Of a DNA stretch of 64,000 nucleotides, positions 24,604 through 47,253 are shown piece by piece. The stretch lies in the IMG/VR virus record IMGVR_UViG_3300020362_000001, one strand, 5' to 3'. Positions within the stretch are counted from its first letter, which is position 1. The number at the start of each line of letters is the position of its first letter. The notes under the pieces are model-generated. The model saw only the letters and a list, made by a program, of their open reading frames with translations. It was not told the origin of the DNA and made no database searches. The position numbers were made by a program, and so were the translations under genes. Source of the stretch: an uncultured virus (IMG/VR IMGVR_UViG_3300020362_000001) (taxonomy: Duplodnaviria > Heunggongvirae > Uroviricota > Caudoviricetes).

Positions 24604-25899
24604 ATGTATTATATTGTTGAAACAGAAGAACAACTAAATAGATTACATTGTTCAGGAAATAGTTGCTATATTAGTATAGTCAATATGAATAATGAATATC
24701 ATCCTGCTTTAACTTCTCCTTGTGTTATTTATTTCCGTACATTTGAGAGTAAAGGATACATATTTCCTATAAACCATTCTGAAGCATTTAAATTATCTTT
24801 TGCTAAAGTAAAAGAATGGATTGAATCTAAGTATGAAAAAATTTATACTAGAGATAAAAAAAAGTGTTTATATCACTTTGATTCCGATAAATTAATAGAT
24901 TTAAATTATGATACTGAGTTGGATTATACTACTATTTGGTCCCGTACTTTTACTAAGCATGGCAGCTTACCATTCTGTACGTCGTTGGTACCGATCCCGA
25001 AAATTTATGAACAAGAGGAAAATGGTTTTGAGGAGATTAAAGGAAAGATCCCAAAACAAGTAAACGAATTTTATAATACTACTTTCCCAACTGTATTTAA
25101 GGCCATAGAAGAACAGGGCCTAAAGGTACATCCTGATTATTTTGATAAATACTTTAAATACCATGAAAAAGAATGGTTTTATCATGGAGACACAGTGTAT
25201 ACTAAGTATAATCTATATAATCTCACCACACGACCCACTAATTCATTTAATGGCGTTAACTTCGCTGCTTTAAATAAAAATGATGGTTCTAGAACAGCAT
25301 TTATACCTAAAAATGATATGTTTTTTGAGTACGATTATGACGCTTATCACGTAAGAATACTGGCAAAGCTAATTGATTTTCCATTAGATAGGGACTCTGT
25401 CCATACCCAATTAGGACGCATGTATTTCGCTAAAGATACGTTGACTGAGGAGGAATACAATCAATCTAAAGAGTTAACATTTAAACAACTATATGGAGGT
25501 GTATTTGATAAGTATAAAGATATACCATTTTTTAAGGCAATGAATGAATATGTAGATAAATTATGGGAATTATTTAATGCTACAGGTAAATTAGAATTAA
25601 TAGGAGGTAAAATATTAGATAAAACAGAAATACAGAACCCAACACCAAATAAAATATTAAATTATATAATACAATCAGCTGAAACATATAATAATGTTGT
25701 ATCTGTAAAACAAGTAATAGAATATTTGGAGAATAAACAAAGTAAGGTTATATTATACACATATGATTCATTTCTAGTTGATTATTCTTTGGCGGATGGT
25801 AAAGAGGTTCTGGAAAAAATTAAACAATTATTTGAAGTAAATGGTTACGTTATAAAGGTTGCGTATGGCAGTAATTATAATTCTTTAAAGTATATATAA
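24604..25899 (+). CDS. Divergent, compact family A DNA polymerase-like protein
   Basis: IEEQG, TTRPTN, motif A DYDAYHVR, motif B SKELTFKQLYG, NYIIQS, motif C TYDSFL. Confidence 0.8.
   Translation: MYYIVETEEQLNRLHCSGNSCYISIVNMNNEYHPALTSPCVIYFRTFESKGYIFPINHSEAFKLSFAKVKEWIESKYEKIYTRDKKKCLYHFDSDKLIDLNYDTELDYTTIWSRTFTKHGSLPFCTSLVPIPKIYEQEENGFEEIKGKIPKQVNEFYNTTFPTVFKAIEEQGLKVHPDYFDKYFKYHEKEWFYHGDTVYTKYNLYNLTTRPTNSFNGVNFAALNKNDGSRTAFIPKNDMFFEYDYDAYHVRILAKLIDFPLDRDSVHTQLGRMYFAKDTLTEEEYNQSKELTFKQLYGGVFDKYKDIPFFKAMNEYVDKLWELFNATGKLELIGGKILDKTEIQNPTPNKILNYIIQSAETYNNVVSVKQVIEYLENKQSKVILYTYDSFLVDYSLADGKEVLEKIKQLFEVNGYVIKVAYGSNYNSLKYI
24908..25063 (+). CDS. Putative nested +1-frame membrane microprotein (51 aa)
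   Basis: MILSWIILLFGPVLLLSMAAYHSVRRWYRSRKFMNKRKMVLRRLKERSQNK; locally raised GC; AAATTATG start context. Confidence 0.5.
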   Translation: MILSWIILLFGPVLLLSMAAYHSVRRWYRSRKFMNKRKMVLRRLKERSQNK

Positions 25900-25907
25900 T
25901 ATTTATT

Positions 25908-26324
25908 ATGGATTACGAAATAAACTTTGACGATTTGGCAAATAAATTATTCTGCACATTTACCACTGAGGATGCATTAGATTCTACCGTTAATACTATA
26001 AAAGGGCAATATCAAATCTTATTTAATAAAATATTTGTCTTATATGTAGATTCAACTAAGGAATATGTGTGTACTTATAATGTTGATTCGTTCAATATGT
26101 CTGATAAAATATTAGACAACACAATATTACTACATAGAAAAAAAGAATCTAATACTCTTTATACAATTAATGCCCTAAATGATTTAATCCGATCATTAAA
26201 TAGCGGTAACCTCGATACTAGTTTTAAAGTAAATTGGCAAGATTATAAAAATTGTATTTTGCTAACTACCGGGGGTGAATTAAAAAAATTAGATACCAAA
26301 ATACATGAAATAATTAATTTTTAA
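25908..26324 (+). CDS. Hypothetical protein
   Basis: LFCTFT..HRKKESNTLYTINALN; between polA-like and SSB genes. Confidence 0.55.
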   Translation: MDYEINFDDLANKLFCTFTTEDALDSTVNTIKGQYQILFNKIFVLYVDSTKEYVCTYNVDSFNMSDKILDNTILLHRKKESNTLYTINALNDLIRSLNSGNLDTSFKVNWQDYKNCILLTTGGELKKLDTKIHEIINF

Positions 26325-26384
26325 TTTGGTTATCTAAAAATAGGTTATTACATTATTAAACGTTTCATTAAAAAGTTATAAAAA

Positions 26385-27170
26385 ATGGATTTAAATTTAA
26401 TCTCAAGCAAGTTAGAACAACTTCAGTCCACATCTGGACAAAACAAGACCCAACAAAAATTTGATAGAAGTCAATATTTTTGGAAGGCACCTATGGGTAA
26501 ATCACAAATTAGATTTGTCCCATTTAAGGAAAACAAAGAAAACCCATTTAGTGAAGTTTATTTTCACTATGGAATTGGAAGCAGAACAATGATTTCTCCT
26601 ATTAATTATGGTGAGAAAGATCCTATTGTAGAGTTTTCAAAAGAACTTCGTAAAACATCTGAACCTGAAAACTGGAGACTAGCTAAAAAGTTAGAACCAA
26701 AAATGAGAGTTTTTGCTCCTGTAGTAGTTAGAGGTGAGGAGAATAAAGGAGTACGTTTTTGGGAATTTGGAAAACAAATTTACCAAGAATTACTTAGTTA
26801 TGCTGCTGATGAAGATTACGGTGATTTTACTGATGTAGTATCAGGACTTGATATGACAGTAGAAGTAGTACAAGGTAATCCTTATCCACAAACTTCAATT
26901 AGAGTTAAACCTAAACAAACTCCATTATCAGATGATAATACATTAGTTGAAAAATGGTTAGCTGAACAGCCTGAATTATTAAAATATTATAAGAAATTTT
27001 CTTATGATGAAATGAAAACGGCACTTCAGGATTGGTTAAATCCAGAGGATACAGCTGAGGTAGATACAGATGAAACTCCTGCACCTAGTAAAGATACAGG
27101 TTATACATTAAATGTTAAGAAAAAAGAGGAGTTTAACGAGAACGAATTCGAAGATTTATTTAAAGATTAA
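26385..27170 (+). CDS. Single-stranded DNA-binding protein (gp32-like)
   Basis: IRFVP..PF.E.YFHY, RFWEFGK, acidic C-terminus; upstream of recA. Confidence 0.75.
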   Translation: MDLNLISSKLEQLQSTSGQNKTQQKFDRSQYFWKAPMGKSQIRFVPFKENKENPFSEVYFHYGIGSRTMISPINYGEKDPIVEFSKELRKTSEPENWRLAKKLEPKMRVFAPVVVRGEENKGVRFWEFGKQIYQELLSYAADEDYGDFTDVVSGLDMTVEVVQGNPYPQTSIRVKPKQTPLSDDNTLVEKWLAEQPELLKYYKKFSYDEMKTALQDWLNPEDTAEVDTDETPAPSKDTGYTLNVKKKEEFNENEFEDLFKD

Positions 27171-27174
27171 TTAG

Positions 27175-28260
27175 ATGGGTAGAAAAAAGGTTAGTCTTGG
27201 AGGTGATATCTCCAAGTCTGTAAAGGGGACATTCTCCCTTGATAAATTTAAGGCCGCAAAAGGTCTTGGAACTTCAAATAATACATTTAAAGAGCAAGAA
27301 TGGATACCATTATCTCCTGCTTGGCAAGAGATGGTATCATTACCTGGAGTTCCTCTTGGTCATATTACTTTACTACGTGGACATTCCGATACTGGAAAAA
27401 CCACCGCTCTACTAGAGGTAGCTGTTAATGCGCAAAGAATGGGTATACTGCCTGTCTTTATTATTACTGAAATGAAATGGTCCTGGGAACACGCAATCAT
27501 GATGGGCCTGAATGCAAATGTAGATAAAGACGAAGATGGAAATACCGTAGGGGTTGACGGTAATTTTATATTTGCTGACAGAGGGCAGCTACCAACAGTA
27601 GAAGCTGTAGCTAGTTTCATGGCTGATTTAATGAATGAACAGAAAAAAGGTAATTTACCTATGGATATTTGTTTCCTATGGGATTCAATTGGTTCTGTTC
27701 CATGTCAAATGTCAGTTGAGAAAGCTAAAAATAATAATGAATGGAATGCCGGTGCAATGTCAACCCAATTTGGTAATTTCATTAACCAAGAAATATTACT
27801 TTCACGTAAAGAATCTAGTCCTTATACTAATACGTTAGTTGCTATTAATAAAATATGGGTTGAAAAACCTATTGGTCCTATGCAACCACCAACTATGAAA
27901 AATAAAGGTGGTAATACAATGTTTTTTGATTCAACATTAATAGTAACCTTTGGTAACATATCTAATTCAGGTAATTTAAAAGTAAATGCTGTTAAAGATG
28001 GTAAAAAAGTAGAATGGGCTAAAAAAGTAAAAGTAGCCGTTGAAAAAAACCATATATCAGGAGTTACTACTACTGGAAAGATAATAGTTACACCTCATGG
28101 ATTTATATCTGATAATAAAAAACAGATAGATGAATATAAAAAGGATCATCAACATGAGTGGGGTGCTATTTTAGGTGAAGGGCCATTTGAAGTAGTACTA
28201 GAAGGATCTGAGGCCGAAGATTTTGAAAATGTAGAGGCATTAGATGAAGCAACTATATAA
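27175..28260 (+). CDS. uvsX: RecA/UvsX-like recombinase
   Basis: Walker A GHSDTGKTT, WDSIGS, KGG..MFF, VEKNH. Confidence 0.8.
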   Translation: MGRKKVSLGGDISKSVKGTFSLDKFKAAKGLGTSNNTFKEQEWIPLSPAWQEMVSLPGVPLGHITLLRGHSDTGKTTALLEVAVNAQRMGILPVFIITEMKWSWEHAIMMGLNANVDKDEDGNTVGVDGNFIFADRGQLPTVEAVASFMADLMNEQKKGNLPMDICFLWDSIGSVPCQMSVEKAKNNNEWNAGAMSTQFGNFINQEILLSRKESSPYTNTLVAINKIWVEKPIGPMQPPTMKNKGGNTMFFDSTLIVTFGNISNSGNLKVNAVKDGKKVEWAKKVKVAVEKNHISGVTTTGKIIVTPHGFISDNKKQIDEYKKDHQHEWGAILGEGPFEVVLEGSEAEDFENVEALDEATI

Positions 28261-29275
28261 GAACATTCTCAATAACTTGCATGAGGAGTCCAATCTCGAG
28301 CCCCTGCACTTAAATAGCAGGGTGCTCCTGGTTGATTCAATGAACACATTTCTACGTTCATTTGCAATGATTCCAGCTATAAATCCACAGGGAAATCATG
28401 TGGGAGGATTAGTTGGTTTTATGAAATCATTAGGTTATGCTATAAAATTAATAAGACCAACTAGAGTTATTTTAGTATTTGATGGTCAAGGAAATATTAC
28501 TAATCGTAGAAACACTTATGCTGATTATAAGGCAAATAGAGAAATAAAAAGAATAACTAATTATCAGGTATTTTCTACATTAGATGAGGAATCAGAATCA
28601 ATAGCCACTCAAATGATGAGGTTATTAGATTATTTAAAATGTTTACCTGTTAATATTTCCATAATTGATAAGATAGAAGCGGATGATACTATTGCTTATT
28701 TATCTAATAAATTAGAAGATGAAGTTATAATATATTCTGCGGATCAAGATTTTTTACAATTAGTAAATAATAAAGTTACCGTATTTTCACCTATAAAAAA
28801 GAAATTTTATAAACCACAAGATGTTTTTGATCAATATGGTTTATATCCTCATAATTTTATTACTATGAAATGTTTAATGGGTGATAAATCGGATAATTTA
28901 CCTGGTGTAAAAGGATTAGGCCCTAAAAAATTAATGAAATTTTTTCCTGAAATAGCAGGTAAAGAAAAATTTACATTACAAGAAGCTTATCAAAAAGCAA
29001 GTGATAAAGTAGATGAACATGGAATTTATGGTAATGTCCATTTATTTAAAAAACAATTAGAAATTAATTATGAATTAATGTGTTTGGAGGATATTCAATT
29101 AATAGAATCGGATAAAAATGAATTAGATGAGTTAATAGTTTCTTCCCCTTATAATTTTAATAAAACTAAATTTTTAAATATGTACAATAAGGATTTATTA
29201 GGAAGAGGAATTCCCAATACAGAATTTTGGTTATCTGAAGTATTTTCTTATCTTACAGCCCAGAAGTTAAAATAG
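28244..29275 (+). CDS. 5'-3' exonuclease / flap endonuclease (T4 RNase H-like)
   Basis: LLVDSMN, VFDG, YKANR, EADDTIA, SADQDFLQL, GDKSDNLPGVKGLG. Confidence 0.9.
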   Translation: MKQLYKNILNNLHEESNLEPLHLNSRVLLVDSMNTFLRSFAMIPAINPQGNHVGGLVGFMKSLGYAIKLIRPTRVILVFDGQGNITNRRNTYADYKANREIKRITNYQVFSTLDEESESIATQMMRLLDYLKCLPVNISIIDKIEADDTIAYLSNKLEDEVIIYSADQDFLQLVNNKVTVFSPIKKKFYKPQDVFDQYGLYPHNFITMKCLMGDKSDNLPGVKGLGPKKLMKFFPEIAGKEKFTLQEAYQKASDKVDEHGIYGNVHLFKKQLEINYELMCLEDIQLIESDKNELDELIVSSPYNFNKTKFLNMYNKDLLGRGIPNTEFWLSEVFSYLTAQKLK

Positions 29276-29277
29276 TT

Positions 29278-30704: not shown

Positions 30705-31685
30705 ATGCGAGACATAACTAAAGAACGAGTTGTATATAAACCCTTTGAATATCCAGAAGCACATGATTATTGGATGAAACAACAACAAGCACATTGGTTA
30801 CATACTGAAGTGCCCATGATGTCAGATGTTACTGATTGGAAACAAAACTTATCGGAAACCGAAAAAAATATAATAGGATCCATTTTAAAAGGATTTGCTC
30901 AAACTGAAACAGTAGTAAATGATTATTGGTCAGGATTAGTAACTAAATGGTTTAGAAAACCTGAAATTATTAAAATGGCTGTAACATTTGGTGCATTTGA
31001 AACTATTCATGCTGAAGCTTATTCACTTTTAAATGAGGAATTGGGACTAGATGATTTTAGCGAGTTTTTAGAAGATGAAACTACAATGGCTAAAATTGAA
31101 AATTTAATGAATGTAAGAGATAATATGGATGGAACTCCAGATTGGACAGAAAGGGCTAAATCGTTAGCCATTTTTTCTGCGTTTACAGAAGGAGTAAATT
31201 TATTTTCTTCATTTGCTGTTTTACTTTCTTTTAAACTAAGAAATTTGTTAAAAGGTGTAGGACAAATAGTAGAATGGAGTATTAGAGATGAATCTTTACA
31301 TTCAAATGCGGGATGTTGGATGTTTAGAGAATTAATGAAGGAAAAACCCGAATTAAATACACCTGAACTAAAAGAAGATATTAGACAAGCTGCTCTACTA
31401 TCTTTAAAATTAGAATTAGATTTTATAGATAAAGTTTACGAAATGGGTGATTTAGAAGGGTGTACTAAATATGATTTAGTATCTTTTATAAAGCATAGAA
31501 CTAATACTAAAATGGCAGATTTAGGATATGAACCAGTAGTTAATGATATTGATATGGATGCCATTCAAAGAATGAAATGGTTTGATTCATTATCAGCTGG
31601 TAAACAACATACCGATTTTTTTGCTAATAGAGTTACTAATTATTCAAAAGGTACCCAAAAATGGGACGCAAACGCATTATTTTAA
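30705..31685 (+). CDS. nrdB: Class Ia ribonucleotide reductase beta subunit
   Basis: ETIHAEAY, EGVNLFSSF, RDESLH, HTDFF..RVTNY. Confidence 0.95.
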   Translation: MRDITKERVVYKPFEYPEAHDYWMKQQQAHWLHTEVPMMSDVTDWKQNLSETEKNIIGSILKGFAQTETVVNDYWSGLVTKWFRKPEIIKMAVTFGAFETIHAEAYSLLNEELGLDDFSEFLEDETTMAKIENLMNVRDNMDGTPDWTERAKSLAIFSAFTEGVNLFSSFAVLLSFKLRNLLKGVGQIVEWSIRDESLHSNAGCWMFRELMKEKPELNTPELKEDIRQAALLSLKLELDFIDKVYEMGDLEGCTKYDLVSFIKHRTNTKMADLGYEPVVNDIDMDAIQRMKWFDSLSAGKQHTDFFANRVTNYSKGTQKWDANALF

Positions 31686-31686
31686 A

Positions 31687-33399
31687 ATGGACGGAAATAT
31701 ATCAGTAGACACTTCTAATTGGGAGGCAGGTAAGGAATATCCTGCTTGGATGGATGAAGTATCCCTAGCAACAATATCAAAAGGTTATTTACTACCTAAT
31801 GAAACACCCAAAAAAGCTTATAGGAGAGTAGCTTCTGCTGCTGCTATGAGGTTAAAAAAACCTGAATTAGAAAATAAATTTTATAAAATGTTATGGAATG
31901 GTTGGTTAGGTTTAGCTTCACCAGTTTTTTCTAACATGGGTACTGATAGAGGATTACCTATATCATGTTTTGGAATTGATACACCTGATTCTATAAGAGG
32001 AATTAGTTTAACCAATGCTGAATTAATGAAATTAACTTCTCAAGGAGGAGGAGTAGGAATTTCCGTTTCTAGAATTAGACCTAGAGGAGCTCAAATATCA
32101 GGTAATGGTAAATCTGAAGGTGTAGTACCTTGGTGTAAAATTTATGATTCTGCTATAATAGCTACTAATCAAGGTTCCGTAAGAAGAGGAGCTGCATCAG
32201 TAAATTTAGATATTAACCACCCTGATATAGGAGAATATTTACAAATTAGAAGACCAAAAGGTGATCCTAATAGACAATGTTTAAATTTACATCAATGTGT
32301 AGTAGTAGATGATCCTTTTATGCGTAAATTAGAATCCAGGGATCAGGATGCAATGTCTTTATGGGCTGAAATTTTAAAATCTAGAATGGAAACGGGAGAG
32401 CCCTATGTAATGTTTAAGGATAATGTTAATAAAAGTAATCCTGTAGCATATATGATGAATAATCTGGATGTTACTATGACTAATATTTGTACTGAAATTA
32501 CTTTATTTACTGATGAAGAACATTCATTTATTTGTTGTTTATCATCTTTAAATTTAGCTAAATATGATGAATGGAAAGATACAGATACTGTAGAAATGTC
32601 TACTTGGTTTTTAGATGGAGTAATGCAGGAATTTATAGATAAATCACAAGGTAGAGATTCATTAAAAAGAACACATAATCATGCTAAAAAAGGTAGAGCT
32701 TTAGGATTAGGAGTAGTAGGTTGGCATACTTTTCTACAACAAAAAGGAATGCCATTTAACTCAATAGCTTCTACTGCTTATACTCATAATATTTTTTCTG
32801 ATATTAAAAATAAAGCAGAAAAAGCATCACTGGATTTAGCTAGAGAATATGGAGAACCGGTTTGGTGTAAGGGTACTGGTATGAGAAATACGCATTTAAT
32901 GGCGATTGCTCCTACTGTATCGAATAGTGTAATATTAGGAGGTATTTCCGCAGGTATTGAACCTTTACCCGCTAATATTTACACATTTAATGGCGCTAAA
33001 GGTACATTTATTCGTAAAAATAAAGTTCTAGAAAGAATTTTAGAAAGTAAAAAAGAAAACAAAAATAAATGGTGGGATCAAATGTTAGCAGATGGGGGTT
33101 CAGCACAGAACTTACCTGATAATGTTTTAACCCCGGAGGAAAAGGAATTATTTTTAACATTCCCGGAAATAAATCAATTAGAGTTAGTTAGACAGGCCGC
33201 TATTCGTCAAAGATATTTAGATCAAACTCAATCATTAAATTTAAGTTTTGATCCTAGTGATTCTCCTAAATGGATAAATCAAGTTCATATGGAAGCATGG
33301 AAATTAGGAATTAAAACTTTATATTATTTAAGAACAGATTCAGTAATAAAAGGTGATTTAGGTTCAAGACAGGCCGATTGTATCAGTTGTGATGGATAA
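31687..33399 (+). CDS. nrdA: Class Ia ribonucleotide reductase alpha subunit (ATG 31687)
   Basis: PISCF, GGGVG, RRGA, TNICTEI, IAPT, KTLYYLR, C-terminal CISCDG. Confidence 0.95.
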   Translation: MDGNISVDTSNWEAGKEYPAWMDEVSLATISKGYLLPNETPKKAYRRVASAAAMRLKKPELENKFYKMLWNGWLGLASPVFSNMGTDRGLPISCFGIDTPDSIRGISLTNAELMKLTSQGGGVGISVSRIRPRGAQISGNGKSEGVVPWCKIYDSAIIATNQGSVRRGAASVNLDINHPDIGEYLQIRRPKGDPNRQCLNLHQCVVVDDPFMRKLESRDQDAMSLWAEILKSRMETGEPYVMFKDNVNKSNPVAYMMNNLDVTMTNICTEITLFTDEEHSFICCLSSLNLAKYDEWKDTDTVEMSTWFLDGVMQEFIDKSQGRDSLKRTHNHAKKGRALGLGVVGWHTFLQQKGMPFNSIASTAYTHNIFSDIKNKAEKASLDLAREYGEPVWCKGTGMRNTHLMAIAPTVSNSVILGGISAGIEPLPANIYTFNGAKGTFIRKNKVLERILESKKENKNKWWDQMLADGGSAQNLPDNVLTPEEKELFLTFPEINQLELVRQAAIRQRYLDQTQSLNLSFDPSDSPKWINQVHMEAWKLGIKTLYYLRTDSVIKGDLGSRQADCISCDG

Positions 33400-38611: not shown

Positions 38612-39077
38612 TATGAGTAAATTTGTATCAACAAAAGTTTTTGATGGGTTTTCTACTGTTTTTAGACAATGGAAAGCTGAAACTACCCATTGTAAATATC
38701 TTCATGGTTATGGGGTATCTTTTAAAGTATGGTTTGAGGGAGACTTAGATGAAAGAAATTGGGTATGGGATTTTGGTGGAATGAAAAGAGCCAAAGGAAA
38801 AATAGATGGAAAGTCTCCTAAGGAATGGATGGACTTTATGTTTGACCATACATTTTTAGTTGCCGAAGATGATCCATTTGTAGAATCATTTTTAAAAATG
38901 GCAGAACATGGAGTAGCTCAAGTAAGAGTTATACCAGCAACTGGTGCAGAAAAATTTGCTGAATTTATTTTTAATAAACTTAATCCATTTATTGAGGAAG
39001 AAACTGATGGTAGGGTTAAAGTTATTAGAGTTGAATTTAGAGAACACGGTAAAAATAGTGCAATATATGAAGGTTAG
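38604..39077 (+). CDS. queD: 6-carboxytetrahydropterin synthase
   Basis: HCKYLHGY, WVWDFG, FDHT, TGAEKFA; in Que cluster. Confidence 0.85.
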   Translation: MNNMSKFVSTKVFDGFSTVFRQWKAETTHCKYLHGYGVSFKVWFEGDLDERNWVWDFGGMKRAKGKIDGKSPKEWMDFMFDHTFLVAEDDPFVESFLKMAEHGVAQVRVIPATGAEKFAEFIFNKLNPFIEEETDGRVKVIRVEFREHGKNSAIYEG

Positions 39078-39849
39078 TCATGAAGTACCTCGTTGTTTAT
39101 TAAATAATAGTCGTGAATGGAATGACTATGATTATTGTCTTCCTCATCTTTTAGATCAAGATGAAGAATATAAAAATTTCTTCTATGAATCTAAAAAACT
39201 AGGTCGTTATATAATAATGGATAATTCACTTCATGAATTAGGTAGATCATATGATTTTAAAAGATTACATTATTGGATTAAAGAATTAGAACCTAATGAA
39301 TTTATTGTGCCCGATATTTGGATGGAACATGCCCAAACAGTATCTATGGCTAAATACTGGAAACAATTTAAATATCCTAAAGGTACTACTCCTACAGCTG
39401 TAATACAGGGTAAAGATAAAAATGCTGCTTATTTATGTGCTGGACTATTAGATGGTTTAGGTTATAAAAAATTATGTATTTCATATGGTGCTAGTTGGTA
39501 TAATGATTTTTTTCCTCATACTAATGAAGATTTAGGAAAATCATTAGGTAGAATAAGATTTGTAAATGGTTTATTAAAATTAAGTCAATATAAAGATACT
39601 AAATTTCATTTATTAGGTTGTTCTGTACCTCAAGAATTTGGGTGGTATGATAATTATCCACAAATAGAATCAATAGATACCTCAAATCCTATTATGGCTG
39701 CTTTAGAGGGAACTATTTATAGCAATAATGGTTTAAATGAAAAACCAAAAGCTAATATGAATGAATATTTTAATATTGATCCTAATAAGGTAAAATATGA
39801 AGATATTTTGGAGAACGTAAATAAGTTTCGTATAATTAATAATATATAA
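39067..39849 (+). CDS. dpdA: TGT-fold protein, probable DpdA-type 7-deazaguanine transglycosylase (ATG 39067)
   Basis: IMDNSLHE, FIVPD, AVIQG, FHLLG, ESIDTS; between queD and queC. Confidence 0.7.
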   Translation: MKVSHEVPRCLLNNSREWNDYDYCLPHLLDQDEEYKNFFYESKKLGRYIIMDNSLHELGRSYDFKRLHYWIKELEPNEFIVPDIWMEHAQTVSMAKYWKQFKYPKGTTPTAVIQGKDKNAAYLCAGLLDGLGYKKLCISYGASWYNDFFPHTNEDLGKSLGRIRFVNGLLKLSQYKDTKFHLLGCSVPQEFGWYDNYPQIESIDTSNPIMAALEGTIYSNNGLNEKPKANMNEYFNIDPNKVKYEDILENVNKFRIINNI

Positions 39850-40088: not shown

Positions 40089-40883
40089 ATGGCAAAAAAT
40101 GTCGTAGTATCCTTATCTGGAGGGATGGATTCCTCAACTTTACTACTCAGATGTTTATCAGAGTATGACAATGTAACAGCTTTATCTTTTGATTATGGTC
40201 AAAAGCATAGAGTAGAACTTGAAAGAGCTCAATCATTAGTAGATTATTTAAATACTAATGGTCAGAGTATTAAATATCAAGTTATAAAATTAGATGGTCT
40301 CGTTAATTTACTAAATTCAGCTTTAGTAACTGGCGGAGATGATGTACCAGAAGGTCATTATGAAGAAGATAATATGAAAGCTACTGTAGTACCTAATAGA
40401 AATAAAATATTTGCATCATTAGTACAGGCAGTTGCCTTATCCGAAGCAAATTCAAATGGTTTAGAAACCGATATTGCTCTGGGTATTCATGCTGGTGATC
40501 ACGCTATTTATCCTGATTGTAGACAAGAATTTAGAGATGCAGATGATGCAGCTTTTAGGATTGGTAATTGGGAAGCAGATAAAGTAGGATATTTTACACC
40601 CTATTTAGAAACAGATAAACTTGGAATTTTAAAAGATGGACAAAAATTGGTTAAAGAGCTCGGAATTGAGTTTAATGAGGTGTACAAACGTACTAATACA
40701 TCTTATAAGCCCTATCCTAGCGGGAATAGCGACTATAAATCAGCTTCATCTGTTGAAAGGATTGAAGCATTTATCAACTTGGGCGTGGACGATCCTGTAC
40801 AATACGAGGATGAAACTGGACCAGTCGATTACAACGTTGCGAAAACACATGTTGAAAAATTATTAGCAGAATACGCAGCATGA
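40089..40883 (+). CDS. queC: 7-cyano-7-deazaguanine synthase (lacks Zn-binding cysteines)
   Basis: SLSGGMDS, FDYGQKH, VPNRN, HAGDHAIYPDCR. Confidence 0.9.
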   Translation: MAKNVVVSLSGGMDSSTLLLRCLSEYDNVTALSFDYGQKHRVELERAQSLVDYLNTNGQSIKYQVIKLDGLVNLLNSALVTGGDDVPEGHYEEDNMKATVVPNRNKIFASLVQAVALSEANSNGLETDIALGIHAGDHAIYPDCRQEFRDADDAAFRIGNWEADKVGYFTPYLETDKLGILKDGQKLVKELGIEFNEVYKRTNTSYKPYPSGNSDYKSASSVERIEAFINLGVDDPVQYEDETGPVDYNVAKTHVEKLLAEYAA

Positions 40884-41218: not shown

Positions 41219-41231
41219 AGTGTAATATAGT

Positions 41232-42694: not shown

Positions 42695-42695
42695 A

Positions 42696-42768
42696 TTCCC
42701 GTGTGGACTGGGAACATAATATAGTCGCGGGTGGAGAGAACGCATCCGGAAAAAGCGTTACATATGTT
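42696..42768 (+). ncRNA. Candidate structured cis-regulatory RNA upstream of a YRG peptide
   Basis: GC-rich; TTCCCG/TGGGAA hairpin, CGGGTG/CATCCG stem, AACG/CGTT pseudoknot. Confidence 0.5.
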
Positions 42769-42790
42769 TAAATTTTTAAAATCTAAATGT

Positions 42791-42847
42791 ATGAAAAATG
42801 AATATATATATAGAGGAATAAAATATACTTCTACAGGTATAAAATAA
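42791..42847 (+). CDS. 18-aa YRG-motif peptide (DUF4278-like)
   Basis: MKNEYIYRGIKYTSTGIK between a structured leader and a terminator. Confidence 0.55.
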   Translation: MKNEYIYRGIKYTSTGIK

Positions 42848-42850
42848 ATT

Positions 42851-42875
42851 AAGGGGCTTTAGGCCCCTTTTTTTT
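42851..42875 (+). terminator. Intrinsic terminator
   Basis: AAGGGGC-TTTAG-GCCCCTT followed by T-run. Confidence 0.85.
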
Positions 42876-42976
42876 AAAAAAAAAGTAAATAAATTTGGTT
42901 TTCTTAAATAGTTATATTATATTGGAACCAAATTTGGTTCAAGTGACTGTAAAACCACTATAAAAAATTAACATTT

Positions 42977-43750
42977 ATGCTTAAACGAATCGAGGACTAT
43001 AATAAAGTTCTCCCAATCCTAGAATTATATACAGCAGTACAATCAGAGGGCAGCAGACAAGGCTACCCTACTATTGTTGTTAGAACATCAGGTTGCACTC
43101 ACCGTTGTTATTTTGGCGAAGGTGGATGGTGTGATTCTTGGTATACAAGTATTCATCCCGAAAAAGGTAAATATAGTTTTCAAGATATAATTGATATGTA
43201 CGATGCAAATCCTCATATTAGTGAAATGATGTTAACTGGTGGTTCACCCACTATGCACCCTAAAATAGTAAACGAATTAACACATTTAGCTAATGAAAGA
43301 GATATTTTTATCACTATCGAAACTGAAGGAAGTCATTTTCTTGCTACTGATTATCCCATTAATCTTCTTAGTATTAGTCCTAAGTTTTCCAATAGTGTTC
43401 CTGTACTGGGAGTGGAAACACCGCAAGGTGCGATCACTGATCAAAAAATGATTGATAGACATAATAAATTTAGAGTAAATAAAGATGCAATTAAAAAAAG
43501 TATTGATTATCACCTTGATTACCATATCAAGCCTGTCCTTGACAAAGACTTATCAATGGTTAAAGAGGTTGAAGAGTTCCTTAAAGATTTAGAAATTCCA
43601 GACCATAAAGTATGGGCTATGCCAGCTGGTGATGATAGAGAAGCCTTATTTGAAAGTTATGGTCCTGTAATGAATTTTGTAAGAGATAGAGGTTGGAGAT
43701 ATACAGGTAGATCTCATATAATGGCTTTTGGAACTGAAAGATGTGTTTAA
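42977..43750 (+). CDS. queE: 7-carboxy-7-deazaguanine synthase (radical SAM)
   Basis: ELY.AVQSEG, CTHRC..WCD, LTGGSP, IETEGS, SISPK. Confidence 0.9.
   Translation: MLKRIEDYNKVLPILELYTAVQSEGSRQGYPTIVVRTSGCTHRCYFGEGGWCDSWYTSIHPEKGKYSFQDIIDMYDANPHISEMMLTGGSPTMHPKIVNELTHLANERDIFITIETEGSHFLATDYPINLLSISPKFSNSVPVLGVETPQGAITDQKMIDRHNKFRVNKDAIKKSIDYHLDYHIKPVLDKDLSMVKEVEEFLKDLEIPDHKVWAMPAGDDREALFESYGPVMNFVRDRGWRYTGRSHIMAFGTERCV
43293..43451 (+). CDS. Putative nested +1-frame membrane microprotein (52 aa)
   Basis: MKEIFLSLSKLKEVIFLLLIIPLIFLVLVLSFPIVFLYWEWKHRKVRSLIKK. Confidence 0.4.
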   Translation: MKEIFLSLSKLKEVIFLLLIIPLIFLVLVLSFPIVFLYWEWKHRKVRSLIKK

Positions 43751-44002
43751 ATGAGTTATATTATAGGTAAAGCATGTATTGGAGTTAAGGATAGTGCCTG
43801 TATAGCGGCATGTCCTGTAGATTGTATCCATACAGGTGAAGAACAAATGTACATTGACCCTGAAGAATGTATAAATTGCGGTGCGTGTGTACCAGAATGT
43901 CCAGTAGAAGCCATTTTCGAGGATGAAGATGAAGCTATAGAGGCTGGAGAATTAGATTCAGTAAAAGCAAATTACAAATTTTTTGATTTAGAATATGAGT
44001 AG
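43751..44002 (+). CDS. Ferredoxin (7Fe/8Fe type)
   Basis: CIGVKDSACIAACPVDCI..CINCGACVPECP. Confidence 0.92.
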   Translation: MSYIIGKACIGVKDSACIAACPVDCIHTGEEQMYIDPEECINCGACVPECPVEAIFEDEDEAIEAGELDSVKANYKFFDLEYE

Positions 44003-44684
44003 AAAAAAGAAGTTTACAGATTTAGAATCTGTACCTGTAGGTTATGCAAATGGTGTTGCACCTGGTTTTCCATTAAATGATAAGGAAAAAACTAAAATGA
44101 TAGAACGTGCGGCTAAAGCGTACGGTAAATTCTTAAGTGAATTAAAATGTGATTGGGAAAATGATCCTAATTCACAAGATACTCCAAGAAGAGTAGCAAA
44201 AGCATATGTAAATGATTTATGGGAAGGTAGATACACCGCTATGAGTGAAATTACTTCTTTCCCTAGTGATGGATATGATGGAATAGTGATTGAAAGAAAC
44301 ATACCTATTACTTCTATGTGTTCACACCATCATCAAACTATAAGAGGTTTAGTACATATTGGTTATGTAGTAGATGAAGATGGTAGAGTAATTGGTTTAT
44401 CTAAACTAAATAGAATAGTAGAATTATTTGCCAGAAGAGGAGCAATACAAGAACAACTTACTTCTGCTATACATAATGCCGTGGATACTATTTGTGAAAA
44501 TAATAAAGGAGTTATTGTTACAGTAGTGGCTACACATAATTGTGTTAGCTGTAGAGGTGTTAAACATAATGGTGCTTCAATGGTTACAACTAAAGCATCT
44601 GGTGTGTTTATGGAAAATGAAAATTTAGCTCGTAAAGAGTTTTTTGATAGTATAAAAATTAATAATGGAAATCACCCTGTATAA
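43995..44684 (+). CDS. folE: GTP cyclohydrolase I
   Basis: DTPRRVAK, SMCSHH, GLSKLNR, QEQLT, HNCVSCRGV. Confidence 0.95.
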   Translation: MSRKKKFTDLESVPVGYANGVAPGFPLNDKEKTKMIERAAKAYGKFLSELKCDWENDPNSQDTPRRVAKAYVNDLWEGRYTAMSEITSFPSDGYDGIVIERNIPITSMCSHHHQTIRGLVHIGYVVDEDGRVIGLSKLNRIVELFARRGAIQEQLTSAIHNAVDTICENNKGVIVTVVATHNCVSCRGVKHNGASMVTTKASGVFMENENLARKEFFDSIKINNGNHPV

Positions 44685-45076
44685 TGTTAGTATTAGATAA
44701 AAAATTACTTTTAAGTTGGAGAGATCTTGATGATCTTATAGAAATACTATGTAAAAAAATAACAGAAGAATTACCTAATATAGATTCAGTACATGGTATA
44801 GCAAGAGGTGGTTTAATACCAGCGGTATTAATTTCACATCAATTAGGATTAAAATATACTAATGAAATTTATCCTAATACCCTAGTAGTAGATGATATTT
44901 GTGATTCGGGTGAAACATTAAAAAATGCACCTGGAGTTTATACTGCCACTTTACATTATAAAAAATCAGCAATAGTAAAACCTACTTTATATGCTAAATT
45001 AGTAGAGGCAGAAGATAATTGGGTTGTATATCCCTGGGAAAGACATGATAGTGCACCCGTAAGAGACAATACATGA
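44684..45076 (+). CDS. Type I phosphoribosyltransferase (Gpt/Hpt-like)
   Basis: GIARGGLIPA, LVVDDICDSGETL, WVVYPWE. Confidence 0.88.
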   Translation: MLVLDKKLLLSWRDLDDLIEILCKKITEELPNIDSVHGIARGGLIPAVLISHQLGLKYTNEIYPNTLVVDDICDSGETLKNAPGVYTATLHYKKSAIVKPTLYAKLVEAEDNWVVYPWERHDSAPVRDNT

Positions 45077-45438
45077 AAGAATTTGATCCAAAACAAGAAT
45101 CAGAAGGATTAGGAGATACAATAGCTAAATTTACTAATGCTACTGGTTTAGATAAGGTAGCTGAAGCAGTAGCTAAATTAGCTGGTGCAGAAGATTGTGG
45201 TTGTAATAGAAGAAGAAAAAAACTAAATAAAGTTATACCTTATAAAAAAACTCCCAAAAATAAACCTTTAAAAGAAATAGTTGGTACTTATGAGGTTATT
45301 GGTGAAATTTATTGTAAATTACCAGGTATAGGTAATACGGTTTTAAATAAAGGTACTATTTTAACCGTAGATAAGAACCATCCTTTATATGAGGATATAG
45401 AATTTTATTATAATGAAAAAATACTTAAAAAGTTATGA
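45073..45438 (+). CDS. Hypothetical phage protein
   Basis: GLGDTIAKFT..DCGCNRRR motif. Confidence 0.55.
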   Translation: MKEFDPKQESEGLGDTIAKFTNATGLDKVAEAVAKLAGAEDCGCNRRRKKLNKVIPYKKTPKNKPLKEIVGTYEVIGEIYCKLPGIGNTVLNKGTILTVDKNHPLYEDIEFYYNEKILKKL

Positions 45439-45962
45439 GTAAACAATTATCACTATTTCCAGAAGATAATTATGTTCCATTTGTTAGTGAGGTAGAACAA
45501 TTTAATAAATTAATGAATAAACCTAATAATTATGAACCTACCATTCCCGGAAAAAAAGACTGGCAATTCGTCATTGATTTTGTCAAGGAAGAACTTGAGG
45601 AGTATGAACAAGCTTGCAAAAACGGAGATATCGTGGAAATTTTGGACGCTTTGTGTGACATTGCTTATGTTTCCCTTGGGAACGGTACTATGTTACATGG
45701 CCTTAAGGATAAGATATGGCCGGCATATCAGGAAGTACAAGCATCAAATTTATCAAAAGCTTGCCAATCTCAAGAAGAAGCCAGACTAACAGTTGAAAAA
45801 CGTAGTAAAGAACAGGGTGAACCATGTCACTGGGAGGAAGTATCTGATATGTATATTGTGTATCGGACTAGAGACCGCAAAGTAATGAAATCTATAAATT
45901 ATTTTAGGCCGGATCTAGAAAAATTCTTTACTAATGAAGAACTTACTAAATTTAATAAATAA
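45435..45962 (+). CDS. MazG-like/all-alpha NTP pyrophosphohydrolase
   Basis: EELEEY..EILDALCDIAYV..EVQASNLSK..KVMKS.NY..PDL. Confidence 0.8.
   Translation: MSKQLSLFPEDNYVPFVSEVEQFNKLMNKPNNYEPTIPGKKDWQFVIDFVKEELEEYEQACKNGDIVEILDALCDIAYVSLGNGTMLHGLKDKIWPAYQEVQASNLSKACQSQEEARLTVEKRSKEQGEPCHWEEVSDMYIVYRTRDRKVMKSINYFRPDLEKFFTNEELTKFNK
45532..45789 (+). CDS. Putative nested +1-frame membrane microprotein (alternative start 45604)
   Basis: WKFWTLCVTLLMFPLGTVLCYMAL followed by RIRYGRHIRKYK; locally raised GC. Confidence 0.45.
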   Translation: MNLPFPEKKTGNSSLILSRKNLRSMNKLAKTEISWKFWTLCVTLLMFPLGTVLCYMALRIRYGRHIRKYKHQIYQKLANLKKKPD

Positions 45963-47253
45963 GGGTACTTTTCCTACTCTTATTGCTCTATCAGCCTTAT
46001 CTGTTAGTGCTTCAGCTGCTTTTTACTCTGTAAGTGGTTTAAGTAAACTTTTTGCGGGAGCATCTTTTGAAGTAATAATAATGGCTGGTTCTTTAGAAGT
46101 AGCTAAATTAGTTACAGCATCCCTATTATATCAATATTGGGATACTATAAATAAAATATTAAGAATTTATTTATCAATTGCAACAATAGTACTTGTATTA
46201 ATTACTAGTATGGGTATATATGGTTTTTTAAGTGCTGCTTACCAGGAAACCTATCAAAAATTAGTTGTTAATGAAAACAAAATACAATTTTTAGAAAATA
46301 AAGCAAAATTTTATGAAGACGACGTTACAAGGTATGATGAGGAACTTAAAAGAATCTCTGGCAATATTAGTACTCTCTCTAATGCTAAAGCTACCTCGAT
46401 CCAAGTACGGGACACAGCGGCTGTGGGCGGTCTTAGATCAACCGTCTCCACTGCTGAACTTAGATTGGCTCAATCGCGTATTTCGGTTGAAGAAGAAAAT
46501 AGAAAAGAAGTAAATTTAAAAAGAACAGTTGCAGCAGATAGTTTACAAAAATTTAAACTACAAATTTTAGATTTACAAAATACATCAGATACAGTAGGTG
46601 AATTAGGTCCACTACAATATATTTCTGGATTAACAGGTACACCCATGGATAAAATAATTAACTGGTTATTATTAGTTATTATTTTTGTATTTGATCCCTT
46701 AGCTATATCTTTAGTGGTAGCAGCTAATTTTGCATTTGTTCAAGCTTTTCCTAAACGAGAGGAGGAAATTACTACTCCTAATATTTCGGAGCCGATTCCT
46801 ATGGAAGATCCTACTAATATAAAGGTAAATGAACCTCAAATTGTTGAAGTTCAAAATAATTTTTTAAATGAATTAGATAAAGTTGAAATACAACAAAATA
46901 AAAAACTTTTAGAAAACCAAGATAATAAAATTAATTCCCAAGACGAAAAATTAGAACAATTAGAAAATGAATTAGAATCAGCCCATGAAGAAATAAATGA
47001 ATTAGACAGGGGGTTACTTAAAACTATACATGGTATACAACATATAAATGATTATTTAAAACATCATGGAGGAGGTTATGATGGGCAGGCAGTAAATTTT
47101 GATGAAATTAAACTTGGATTTGCTGAAAAAGATGATTATATTGAACCAGTTAAACCTAGATCAAAACCTAGTGGTAAAAAAGATCCTTATTTAGATAAAA
47201 ATGCTGATCCAGATTACCCTACAAAAGACGGAGACAATATTATTACGTATTAA
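45934..47253 (+). CDS. Membrane protein with coiled-coil domains
   Basis: 3 N-terminal TM helices, coiled coil, IIFVFDPLAI TM. Confidence 0.65.
   Translation: MKNLLNLINKGTFPTLIALSALSVSASAAFYSVSGLSKLFAGASFEVIIMAGSLEVAKLVTASLLYQYWDTINKILRIYLSIATIVLVLITSMGIYGFLSAAYQETYQKLVVNENKIQFLENKAKFYEDDVTRYDEELKRISGNISTLSNAKATSIQVRDTAAVGGLRSTVSTAELRLAQSRISVEEENRKEVNLKRTVAADSLQKFKLQILDLQNTSDTVGELGPLQYISGLTGTPMDKIINWLLLVIIFVFDPLAISLVVAANFAFVQAFPKREEEITTPNISEPIPMEDPTNIKVNEPQIVEVQNNFLNELDKVEIQQNKKLLENQDNKINSQDEKLEQLENELESAHEEINELDRGLLKTIHGIQHINDYLKHHGGGYDGQAVNFDEIKLGFAEKDDYIEPVKPRSKPSGKKDPYLDKNADPDYPTKDGDNIITY

What the first reader, a model, noticed from the sequence alone, without database searches (positions are those of the whole stretch)
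24908..46513. Recurrent hidden +1-frame membrane microproteins nested in enzyme genes
Six ATG-started ORFs in the +1 frame of host genes (24908 in polA-like; 40636 in queC; 43293 and 43485 in queE; 45532 in MazG-like; 46313 in the membrane protein) share a hydrophobic segment followed by a Lys/Arg-rich tail. Over these spans host codons switch away from the usual TTA/ATA/GTA, which would create +1 stops, and GC visibly rises. This suggests an overprinted layer of single-pass membrane peptides that standard annotation would miss. Caveat: T-ending codons make +1 frames hydrophobic by default, and open stretches of about 40 codons occur by chance elsewhere here.
Basis: partly seen in the sequence, partly recalled or inferred. 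Interest (0 to 1): 0.8.

Follow-up and report, generated by a model that had tools for sequence, protein, structure and literature searches.

The report
Four hidden genes nested inside phage genes
Four of the six short reading frames hidden in the +1 frame of this marine phage's genes are kept open across dozens of diverged relatives and so look like real unannotated overlapping genes, while the other two look like chance.

Summary
The window is a ~30% GC, all-plus-strand myophage region related to Flavobacterium phage immuto. All six +1-frame ATG ORFs exist at the stated coordinates.

In the window alone the excess of long +1 ORFs is modest: 5 of at least 60 aa against about 1.8 expected.

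Comparative data decide the question. A blind scan covered 48 testable gene families of 82, with the window and its close relatives left out.
- **45532 in the MazG-like gene:** 7 stops seen, 528 expected.
- **46313 core in a membrane-protein gene:** 46 seen, 336 expected.
- **43293 in QueE:** 21 seen, 159 expected.
- **24908 in a PolA-like gene:** 9 seen, 122 expected.

Stop-making Leu/Ile/Val codons are used freely where harmless and avoided only where they would create a +1 stop. The start ATGs are conserved. Synonymous change between close pairs is 16-49% lower inside the ORFs. Outgroups lack the ORFs.

ORF 43485 is chance, and 40636 (QueC) cannot be told from background.

Three of the four peptides are transmembrane-like. 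The Lys/Arg tail is a by-product of the host sequence. No translation evidence exists.

Best reading: independently overprinted nested genes, new members of a known kind.

The parts
45532..45789 (+). MazG-nested +1 ORF (85 aa here; median 117 aa in relatives, which run on to about host codon 141-150)
   Evidence: Open with an ATG in 84 of 85 homologues; the start falls at host codon 33 in 68. There were 0 +1 stops against 372 expected in 68 unique sequences, and 7 against 528 in the wider blind scan. All 11 of 11 non-redundant representatives are open, with 5.5 stops expected in each. Synonymous differences are .136 inside against .212 outside.
45435..45962 (+). Host gene: MazG-like NTP pyrophosphohydrolase (frame 0)
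   Evidence: Pfam PRA-PH, E 4e-10. The immuto homologue is annotated as a nucleoside triphosphate pyrophosphohydrolase.
43293..43451 (+). QueE-nested +1 ORF (52 aa); the conserved core covers about the first 38-50 codons
   Evidence: Present in 46 of 49 homologues; the start falls at host codon 106 in 42. 20 stops against 142 expected and 21 against 159. 7 of 9 representatives are open. Ile and Leu codon choice depends on the next codon. Synonymous differences are .188 against .248.
42977..43750 (+). Host gene: QueE (7-carboxy-7-deazaguanine synthase, radical SAM)
   Evidence: Pfam Radical_SAM. The immuto homologue is annotated QueE.
46313..46513 (+). Nested +1 ORF in the membrane-protein gene (66 aa here). 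The conserved core is 46334-46513; most relatives start at the Met of host codon 134 and end near codon 199.
   Evidence: Core: 4 stops against 275 expected in 71 sequences, and 46 against 336 in 89 sequences that include more distant ones. Present in 82 of 91 homologues. 28 of 38 representatives are open, and the most distant ones are broken. Synonymous differences are .109 against .213. Not transmembrane-like.
45934..47253 (+). Host gene: 439-aa protein with four hydrophobic segments and no family match
   Evidence: No PHROG match and only sub-threshold Pfam hits. Four Kyte-Doolittle segments reach 1.6.
24908..25063 (+). Nested +1 ORF (51 aa) in the PolA-like gene: an N-terminal hydrophobic helix followed by a basic tail
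   Evidence: Present in 45 of 55 homologues; the start is at host codon 102 in 38 and the stop at codon 153 in 32. 3 stops against 97 expected and 9 against 122. 6 of 8 representatives are open. Only about 2.2-2.5 stops are expected per sequence, so each sequence carries less weight. Synonymous differences are .132 against .157, p .06.
24604..25899 (+). Host gene: 431-aa protein, weakly DNA polymerase A-like
   Evidence: No Pfam or PHROG hit at the default cut-off. DNA_pol_A is sub-threshold: E 0.002, 17.5 bits against a cut-off of 34.3. Its 36%-identical immuto homologue is annotated 'DNA polymerase family A'.
40636..40866 (+). QueC +1 ORF (76 aa): not shown to be conserved
   Evidence: 74 stops against 145 expected, ratio .51, within the background range of other genes. 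3 of 14 representatives are open. The synonymous-rate minimum of QueC lies elsewhere.
43485..43592 (+). Second QueE +1 ORF (35 aa): chance
   Evidence: 90 stops against 101 expected. ATG present in 16 of 41 homologues. 0 of 9 representatives are open.

Best explanation
Four of the six ORFs are real same-strand overlapping genes, each created independently by overprinting the +1 frame of an older gene. They start at 24908, 43293, 45532, and 46313/46334.

**How they most likely work (inferred).** Ribosomes start at the conserved internal AUG on the host gene's own mRNA. The likely hosts are Flavobacteriia, whose ribosomes do not use Shine-Dalgarno sites, which should make A/U-rich internal AUGs easier to use. 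The products are small proteins of about 50-120 aa. Three have one hydrophobic helix that would sit in the host cytoplasmic membrane, with a basic tail inside the cell. The fourth is a basic, non-membrane peptide. The most likely role is accessory and host-directed, at the membrane (exclusion of other phages, lysis timing or leakage control). That role is a guess.

**Shown here:**
- The frames are kept open by selection.
- The start codons are kept.
- Synonymous change in the host genes is slowed.
- The ORFs are restricted to one clade.

**Inferred, not shown:** translation, membrane insertion and function.

The other two ORFs (43485, 40636) are ordinary open stretches.
For: 1. **Blind scan.** It covered 48 of 82 gene families; 34 had fewer than 8 usable homologues. 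The window and relatives at 90% identity or more were excluded. The null was each family's own codon usage in contexts that cannot make a stop. The only strong +1 outliers were:
   - MazG: 7 stops seen, 528 expected, over 109 codons.
   - The 439-aa gene: 46 seen, 336 expected, over 57 codons.
   - QueE: 21 seen, 159 expected, over 51 codons.
   - The 431-aa gene: 9 seen, 122 expected, over 47 codons.
   - All other long runs had ratios of .5 or more. The +2 frame was never comparably depleted.
2. **Context dependence.** TTA, CTA, ATA and GTA are common when the next codon starts with C or T. They are absent when it starts with A or G. One example is MazG Leu90, which is CTT in 67 of 67 sequences; other Leu columns vary among CTT, TTG, CTC and CTG but never use TTA. 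Just outside the ORFs the same contexts carry stops in 34-37 of 41 sequences.
3. **Non-redundant representatives, under 80% identical to each other.** MazG is open in 11 of 11 with 5.5 stops expected in each. QueE is open in 7 of 9, the 439-aa gene in 28 of 38 and the 431-aa gene in 6 of 8. Controls: QueC 3 of 14, ORF 43485 0 of 9, ORF 27635 0 of 13.
4. **Start codons.** The MazG ATG is present in 67 of 67 sequences, with Tyr33 as TAT in 66 and TAC in none, while other Tyr columns are 30-65% TAC.
5. **Synonymous differences in independent close pairs, inside against outside.** .136 against .212 (p 2e-13).188 against .248 (p 7e-4).109 against .213 (p 4e-27), and .132 against .157 (p .06).
6. 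**Blind 50-codon synonymous-rate scan.** In this scan of 26 families, each of the four genes has its minimum on or beside its ORF (.53.70.61.56). The 1% quantile of 1457 windows is .64.
7. **Frame specificity.** Only the +1 sense frame is consistently open: 81 of 81, 44 of 46, 72 of 90 and 40 of 45.
8. **Outgroups.** MazG homologues at 31-40% identity in equally AT-rich phages carry 6-14 +1 stops (my count from the translations). The 36%-identical immuto PolA-like gene has no ORF.
Against: - There is no direct evidence of translation.
- Column-wise synonymous diversity across all homologues is not lower inside the ORFs (MazG .74 against .76; QueE .87 against .91; the 431-aa gene .74 against .68). 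Constraint on peptide sequence is therefore weak, and shows only in close pairs.
- The 24908 ORF rests on few at-risk columns (about 2.2-2.5 expected stops per sequence), and its synonymous test is marginal (p .06).
- Some lineages carry stops: QueE 2 of 9, the 431-aa gene 2 of 8 and the 439-aa gene 10 of 38 representatives.
- Hydrophobicity exceeds a stop-free synonymous null only modestly (1.94 against 1.38; 2.68 against 1.74; 2.11 against 1.61). It does not exceed it for the 439-aa gene's ORF (0.89 against 1.05). Net charge is close to the null: equal in MazG and QueE, not significantly above it in the other two.
- The immuto QueE-nested peptide is much less hydrophobic.
- The start context does not separate these ATGs from the unconserved controls.
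- The Poisson figures overstate significance because the sequences are related.
- For the 439-aa gene, one antisense frame is also open in 50 of 90 sequences.
Confidence: 0.78

Rival explanations
1. The +1 frames are kept open by selection, but not for a separately initiated protein. One version is that ribosomes or polymerases shift frame inside the host gene and make fusion products. Another is that translating the +1 frame regulates the host gene, and the peptide itself does not matter.
For: Peptide-sequence constraint is weak: diversity is the same inside and outside the ORFs. C-terminal lengths vary, and the window's MazG-nested ORF lacks the last third. Public protein sets hold chimeras that switch between the MazG frame and the +1 frame.
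Against: The ATG is conserved at the same codon in most homologues, partly through synonymous choice (Tyr33 TAT in 66, TAC in 0 of 67). An in-frame +1 stop lies just upstream of the ATG in the window. The chimeras switch at five different places, as random indels would, not at one slippery site. Synonymous change is reduced along the whole ORF.
Confidence: 0.12
2. The ORFs are open by chance, by shared descent and by composition. T-ending codons, conserved host residues and higher local GC leave few chances for +1 stops, and relatives inherit the open state.
For: In the window alone the excess is modest. The default +1 frame is already hydrophobic and basic. Long unconserved +1 ORFs exist (27635 at 67 aa, and 58109). 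The 24908 ORF has only about 2.2-2.5 expected stops per sequence.
Against: The null uses each family's own codon usage, and the ratio outside the ORFs is .83-1.11. Avoidance depends on the first base of the next codon. At-risk columns vary among several allowed codons but never use the forbidden ones. Representatives under 80% identical to each other remain open. The controls behave neutrally. Outgroups of equal GC carry stops.
Confidence: 0.06
3. The constraint acts on the nucleic acid and not on a reading frame (RNA structure, a binding site, or an antisense gene), and the open +1 frame is a side effect.
For: The MazG core is the only stretch of 7.3 kb that matches immuto by megablast (79.5% identity). 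Antisense frames are partly open in QueE (15 of 46) and in the 439-aa gene (50 of 90).
Against: The depletion is frame-specific. The inside/outside ratio of stop density is 0.00-0.11 in the +1 frame and .28-2.5 in the other four frames. The +2 frame is not depleted. The pattern follows the stop-codon rule column by column.
Confidence: 0.04

Closest known systems
PhiX174 gene E inside gene D, and MS2 gene L across coat/replicase (overprinted single-gene lysis proteins); recalled, not from a call
   Same: A small protein with one hydrophobic helix and a charged region, encoded wholly or largely in the +1 frame of an older, conserved gene on the same strand.
   Different: Those are in tiny ssDNA/ssRNA phages under strong size limits, and their lysis function is proven. 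Here the genome is a large dsDNA myophage, the host genes are enzymes, there are four separate cases, and no function is known.
Lambda Rz1 embedded in Rz (spanin pair); recalled, not from a call
   Same: A gene fully embedded in the +1 frame of another gene in a dsDNA tailed phage, and missed by gene callers.
   Different: Rz1 is a lipoprotein that works with its host-gene product in the lysis cassette. On reading the four peptides I saw no lipobox-type cysteine context. The host genes here are QueE, MazG, a PolA-like gene and a membrane protein, not spanins.
Embedded out-of-frame ORFs of mycobacteriophage Patience found by mass spectrometry (PMC4324244; passages read)
   Same: Same-strand, different-frame ORFs wholly inside annotated phage genes, one of them a DNA polymerase gene.
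   Different: Those have peptide evidence, but the authors call them generally not conserved and possibly non-functional. The ones here have strong conservation and no peptide evidence.
De novo membrane proteins from thymine-rich sequence (PMC7005711; title and abstract start seen in a search listing) and overprinted viral accessory proteins (PMC8227390; listing only)
   Same: New proteins arising from T-rich reading frames tend to be transmembrane-like. Overprinted viral genes are young, clade-restricted and weakly constrained.
   Different: Those papers concern yeast intergenic sequence and mostly small eukaryotic viruses. No phage enzyme gene is involved.

Membership tests
Same-strand overlapping (overprinted) protein-coding gene | The alternative frame stays open in diverged relatives more than neutral codon choice allows | tested here: met
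   Met for four ORFs: 7 stops seen against 528 expected, 46 against 336, 21 against 159, and 9 against 122; representatives. Not met for 43485 (90 against 101). Not separable from background for 40636 (74 against 145).
Same-strand overlapping (overprinted) protein-coding gene | Reduced synonymous change of the host gene within the overlap | tested here: met
   In close independent pairs the inside/outside ratios are .64.76 and .51 (p at most 7e-4), and .84 (p .06) for the 431-aa gene. The gene-wise minima fall on the ORFs. A column-diversity measure over all homologues showed no drop.
Same-strand overlapping (overprinted) protein-coding gene | Conserved start codon | tested here: met
   The ATG sits at the same host codon in 68 of 84 (MazG), 42 of 46 (QueE), 48+21 of 82 (439-aa gene, two positions) and 38 of 45 (431-aa gene). 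In MazG it is kept through synonymous choice.
Same-strand overlapping (overprinted) protein-coding gene | The new frame is younger than the host frame | tested here: met
   MazG outgroups at 31-40% identity lack the ORF. The most distant 439-aa-gene homologues lack it, as does the immuto PolA-like homologue. The nested peptides match no Pfam or PHROG family.
Same-strand overlapping (overprinted) protein-coding gene | The product is translated | not testable with these tools
   RNA-library contigs cover the regions, but they cannot show transcription, strand or frame.
Single-pass membrane microprotein | One hydrophobic segment long enough to span a membrane, conserved across the family | tested here: inconclusive
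   The best 19-residue Kyte-Doolittle window reaches 1.6 in 83% (MazG-nested), 93% (QueE-nested) and 96% (431-aa-gene-nested) of homologues, but in 4% for the 439-aa-gene-nested ORF. The excess over a stop-free synonymous null is about 1-2 SD. No dedicated topology predictor was available. The AlphaFold model has low confidence (pLDDT 56.7).
Embedded spanin (Rz1-type) | Lipoprotein signal with a lipobox cysteine, embedded in an inner-membrane spanin gene of the lysis cassette | tested here: not met
   The host genes are QueE, MazG-like, PolA-like and a 439-aa membrane protein. On reading the peptides I saw no lipobox context (by eye; no predictor was run).
Holin | Small membrane protein with a charged C-terminal tail, encoded beside an endolysin | not tested
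   Size, hydrophobic helix and charged tail fit three of the four peptides. No endolysin neighbourhood was examined, and the charged tail is a by-product of the host sequence. This is a resemblance only.

The most novel reading that the evidence does not exclude
A clade of large, AT-rich marine phages of Flavobacteriia has repeatedly made new genes by overprinting the +1 frame of core enzyme genes. There are at least four independent births in 64 kb, three of them yielding membrane microproteins. Two things would favour this route: translation initiation that does not use Shine-Dalgarno sites, and the T-rich middle codon position of the +1 frame. If so, standard annotation of large phage genomes systematically misses a layer of host-directed small proteins, and many more await the same stop-avoidance scan.
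Probability: 0.45. Interest if true: 0.78.

Novelty: new member of a known kind. Interest (0 to 1): 0.64.

Why it matters
Overlapping genes are textbook for tiny viruses but are assumed to be rare in dsDNA phages of 100 kb and more, and gene callers forbid them.

Here four fully nested genes, inside QueE, a MazG-like gene, a PolA-like gene and a membrane-protein gene, carry a conservation signal as clear as that of accepted viral overlapping genes. They are not annotated in the cultured relative, and they match no known family.

They offer a tractable system for testing how new proteins are born inside old ones, because immuto and its host Flavobacterium sp. LMO8 are in culture. A single base change can be silent in the enzyme yet make a stop in the nested frame.

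The simple stop-avoidance scan used here could be run over all phage metagenomes.

Tried and rejected
- **Column-wise synonymous diversity** over all homologues showed no inside/outside difference. It is saturated, and stop avoidance itself raises codon variety. I replaced it with close-pair rates.
- **Start-context weight matrix** built from 75 annotated starts. The nested ATGs score in the 83rd-95th percentile of internal ATGs, but so do the unconserved 40636 and 43485. It does not discriminate.
- **Bacteroidetes-type -7 promoter motif.** None lies within 120 nt upstream of the nested starts, and 0 of 62 occurrences lie within 60 nt of any gene start. Uninformative.
- **Family searches with the five peptides.** Nothing reached threshold in Pfam or PHROGs; the best E-value was 0.005. 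The protein atlas gave no usable hit.
- **Profile search of 1.84 billion representatives** with the MazG-nested family gave 27 hits. The nine I read were the same nested ORF, or chimeras that switch between the MazG frame and the +1 frame. No stand-alone homologue was seen.
- **AlphaFold on the MazG-nested family.** All-helical, pLDDT 56.7, pTM .31. This is too weak for a fold search, so none was run.
- **RNA-library runs** (4 laid, from 3 studies). Contigs cover parts of QueE, the MazG core and the 439-aa-gene ORF region. Contigs cannot show transcription, strand, ends or frame, and DNA may be present in the libraries.
- **ORF 2580** (85 aa, in a collagen-like tail-fibre gene) could not be tested because no usable homologues were found.
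- **ORFs 27635 and 58109** are not conserved.
- **Relatedness of the four nested families.** Profile comparison gives a probability of 4.9% or less for every pair.
- **Whole-genome data.** None is held for this window.
- **Complex prediction.** Not attempted, because I claim no binding.

Full report
**What the window is.** The window has about 30% GC. It carries 82 tightly packed plus-strand genes covering 96% of the sequence. The gene content is that of a myophage:
- Structure: tail sheath, tail tube, baseplate and tail fibres.
- Replication and repair: gp32-like and UvsX-like proteins, a DnaB-like helicase, a split family-B polymerase and a clamp loader.
- Nucleotide metabolism: ribonucleotide reductase, ThyA, and a 7-deazaguanine cluster (QueC, QueE, FolE) with a MazG-like pyrophosphohydrolase.
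- Other: GroEL.

The only cultured relatives are the Flavobacterium phages vB_FspM_immuto. Their DNA has all guanine replaced by a formylated preQ1 derivative (PMC10516641; passages read). That paper does not contain the word 'overlapping'. No whole genome is held for this window.

**The observation.** Each starts with ATG and lies in the +1 frame of its host gene. Inside the spans the host genes use far fewer TTA/CTA/ATA/GTA codons, and GC rises in four of the six. The six peptides are only loosely alike: two of them have no segment that reaches the usual hydropathy threshold.

Within the window alone the case is weak (300 shuffles of three kinds).
- +1 ATG-ORFs of at least 60 aa: 5 observed against 1.0-1.8 expected (P about 0.003).
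- At least 50 aa: 7 against 3.0-4.1.
- Shorter thresholds: no excess.
- Total +1 stops: 2097 against about 2087 expected, so no global depletion.

**Comparative test, MazG.** A protein-guided scan of IMG/VR found 335 relatives of the MazG-like gene, and 80 loci were kept. All 68 unique genes (69-94% protein identity) are free of +1 stops over the aligned span, and the open run is 90-149 codons long.

I resampled synonymous codons with each locus's own usage (67 sequences; one with an N was left out). This predicts 4.3-9.6 stops in that run, and the run stayed open in at most 0.2% of resamples. The flanks of the same gene carry about 7 stops in about 56 codons.

The codon table explains why. 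TTA, CTA, ATA and GTA are the commonest codons where the next codon starts with C or T. They are absent where it starts with A or G. One Leu followed by Lys is CTT in 67 of 67 sequences. Other at-risk Leu columns vary among CTT, TTG, CTC and CTG but never use TTA. The Tyr codon that supplies the nested ATG is TAT in 66 sequences, CAT in 1 and TAC in none, while other Tyr columns are 30-65% TAC.

MazG homologues of 31-40% identity in equally AT-rich phages carry 6-14 +1 stops (my count). The open frame is therefore not a property of the fold.

**A self-calibrated null and a blind scan.** I took each family's codon usage in contexts that cannot make a stop. From it I computed expected +1 stops per alignment column. 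The window and all relatives at 90% identity or more were excluded.

Outside the ORFs the observed/expected ratio is .83-1.11, so the null is calibrated.

I then fetched loci around three more anchor genes and for the two remaining host genes. With these I scanned every gene of the window that had at least 8 usable homologues: 48 of 82, with 34 skipped. Four regions stand far apart from everything else:

| Host gene | Stops seen / expected | Ratio | Length (codons) | Window position |
|---|---|---|---|---|
| MazG-like | 7 / 528 | .01 | 109 | 45519-45845 |
| 439-aa gene | 46 / 336 | .14 | 57 | 46339-46509 |
| QueE | 21 / 159 | .13 | 51 | 43292-43444 |
| 431-aa gene | 9 / 122 | .07 | 47 | 24910-25050 |

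For the 439-aa gene, the closer set gives 4 seen against 275 expected.

All other long runs have ratios of .5 or more. Short runs of 20-24 codons fluctuate more, in both the +1 and +2 frames. The +2 frame never shows comparable depletion.

The remaining ORFs behave as follows.
- QueC 40636: 74 seen against 145 expected (ratio .51), inside the background range (FolE, PolB and others .50-.67).
- 43485: 90 against 101.
- 27635 (67 aa) and 58109: not conserved.

**Related sequences are not independent.** To allow for this I reduced each family to representatives under 80% identical to each other.

| ORF | Representatives open | Note |
|---|---|---|
| MazG-nested | 11 of 11 | 5.5 stops expected in each |
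| QueE-nested core | 7 of 9 | |
| 439-aa-gene-nested | 28 of 38 | the most distant ones carry 3-6 stops |
| 431-aa-gene-nested | 6 of 8 | |
| QueC 40636 (control) | 3 of 14 | |
| 43485 (control) | 0 of 9 | |
| 27635 (control) | 0 of 13 | |

The 431-aa-gene ORF has only about 2.2-2.5 expected stops per sequence and few at-risk columns. It is the weakest of the four.

**Is it the +1 sense frame?** Yes. Over the four spans the +1 frame is open in 81 of 81, 44 of 46, 72 of 90 and 40 of 45 homologues. The next best frames are antisense: 50 of 90 for the 439-aa gene and 15 of 46 for QueE. Raw stop density inside against outside is 0.00-0.11 for the +1 frame and .28-2.5 for the other four frames.

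**Constraint on the peptides.** A diversity measure over all homologues shows no drop inside the ORFs. Rates in phylogenetically independent close pairs do.

| Host gene | Synonymous differences per identical-residue codon, inside / outside | p |
|---|---|---|
| MazG-like | .136 / .212 | 2e-13 |
| QueE | .188 / .248 | 7e-4 |
| 439-aa gene | .109 / .213 | 4e-27 |
| 431-aa gene | .132 / .157 | .06 |

A blind scan with 50-codon windows over 26 families gave 1457 windows, with a 1% quantile of .64 and a 5% quantile of .75. The gene-wise minima fall on or beside the four ORFs.53 at 45570.56 at 24814.61 at 46294 and .70 at 43292. The QueC minimum lies elsewhere. Selection against truncation is therefore strong, and selection on residue identity is weak to moderate, as expected for young overprinted genes.

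**What the products look like**.

| Nested ORF | Present with an ATG | Median length (aa) | Usual start (host codon) |
|---|---|---|---|
| MazG-nested | 84 of 85 | 117 | 33 |
| QueE-nested | 46 of 49 | 53 | 106 |
| 439-aa-gene-nested | 82 of 91 | 65 | 134 or 127 |
| 431-aa-gene-nested | 45 of 55 | 52 | 102 (stop usually at 153) |

The window's MazG-nested copy is a short form of 85 aa.

A 19-residue hydropathy window reaches 1.6 in 83%, 93%, 4% and 96% of homologues respectively. I compared this with a null that resamples host codons but forbids +1 stops.
- Hydrophobicity is about 1-2 SD above the null for the three transmembrane-like families.
- It is not above the null for the 439-aa-gene family.
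- Net positive charge equals the null in MazG and QueE. The Lys/Arg tail is therefore a by-product of Glu/Lys-rich host sequence.

Other properties:
- The four families are unrelated to each other.
- They match no Pfam or PHROG family.
- The atlas gave no usable hit.
- A profile search of 1.84 billion representatives gave 27 hits. The nine I read were the same nested ORF or frame-switching chimeras with MazG.
- AlphaFold gives a low-confidence helical model.

**Cultured relative.** Immuto carries the MazG-, QueE- and 439-aa-gene-nested ORFs, although its QueE-nested peptide is much less hydrophobic. None of them is annotated there. Its 36%-identical homologue of the 431-aa gene is annotated as a family A DNA polymerase and has no nested ORF.

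**Mechanism.**
- Shown: selection keeps four +1 frames open, keeps their ATGs and slows synonymous change; the ORFs are restricted to one clade.
- Inferred: internal initiation on the host gene's mRNA. This is plausible because Flavobacteriia ribosomes ignore Shine-Dalgarno sites and initiation is tuned by mRNA structure and nearby bases (PMC6847099; abstract start seen in a listing).
- Inferred: membrane insertion for three of the products.
- Guessed: an accessory role at the host membrane.

Neither the start context nor a promoter motif discriminates. RNA-library contigs cover the regions, but they say nothing about transcription or frame.

**Comparison with what is known.** The kind is known.
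- PhiX174 E in D, MS2 L and lambda Rz1 in Rz are recalled examples, not from a call.
- Embedded out-of-frame ORFs of mycobacteriophage Patience were seen by mass spectrometry but are 'generally not conserved' (PMC4324244; passages read).
- T-rich sequence is known to yield de novo membrane proteins (PMC7005711; listing only).

My searches found no description of nested genes in MazG, QueE or immuto-like phages. Subscription journals and supplementary files were not covered.

**Verdict.**
- These are new members of a known kind.
- They are of fair interest because four independent births sit in one large phage genome, and a cultured system exists to test them.

Noticed in passing
window 25163-25273 (+1 frame of the 431-aa gene): A second +1 ORF (36 aa) in the same host gene shows local stop depletion in homologues (10 seen against 87 expected over 21 codons), with the same start and stop in many of them. 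Five of the 11 sampled homologues carry an internal stop. Short runs like this also occur as noise elsewhere, so this is borderline.
   Followed up: partly
proteins P0001, P0004, P0006, P0010, P0016, P0021, P0023: Public protein sets hold chimeras that begin in the MazG frame and continue in the +1 frame, or the reverse. They switch at several different points. They are most simply indels in assemblies that gene callers accept because the +1 frame is open. Natural frameshift variants are not excluded.
   Followed up: no
window 45489-45778: This MazG core is the only part of a 7.3-kb query that matches any cultured phage by megablast (79.5% identity to immuto). It also draws the deepest pile of related contigs in two of the four RNA-library runs laid (X6 and X9). 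This is unusual nucleotide-level conservation, consistent with dual coding.
   Followed up: partly
window 47262-49022 and 49666-50589: The family B DNA polymerase is split into two ORFs (exonuclease plus N-terminal polymerase part, and C-terminal part), with two small genes (49025-49402 and 49403-49666) between them.
   Followed up: no
window 2580-2837 (+1 frame of the collagen-like tail-fibre gene 2381-4099): An 85-aa +1 ORF, as long as the MazG-nested one, lies in a GC-richer repeat-containing gene. No usable homologues were found, so its conservation could not be tested.
   Followed up: partly
window 46334-46513, antisense: One antisense frame over the 439-aa-gene nested ORF is also open in 50 of 90 homologues. 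That frame is stop-poor everywhere (.038 per codon outside the span), so this is probably a side effect.
   Followed up: partly
window 53744-55381: A full-length GroEL-like chaperonin gene in a phage (PHROG 5725, E 9e-146).
   Followed up: no
window 31582-33399 and 38944-39849: Two ORFs called from TTG/GTG starts overlap the preceding gene by about 100-130 nt. The true starts probably lie further downstream.
   Followed up: no
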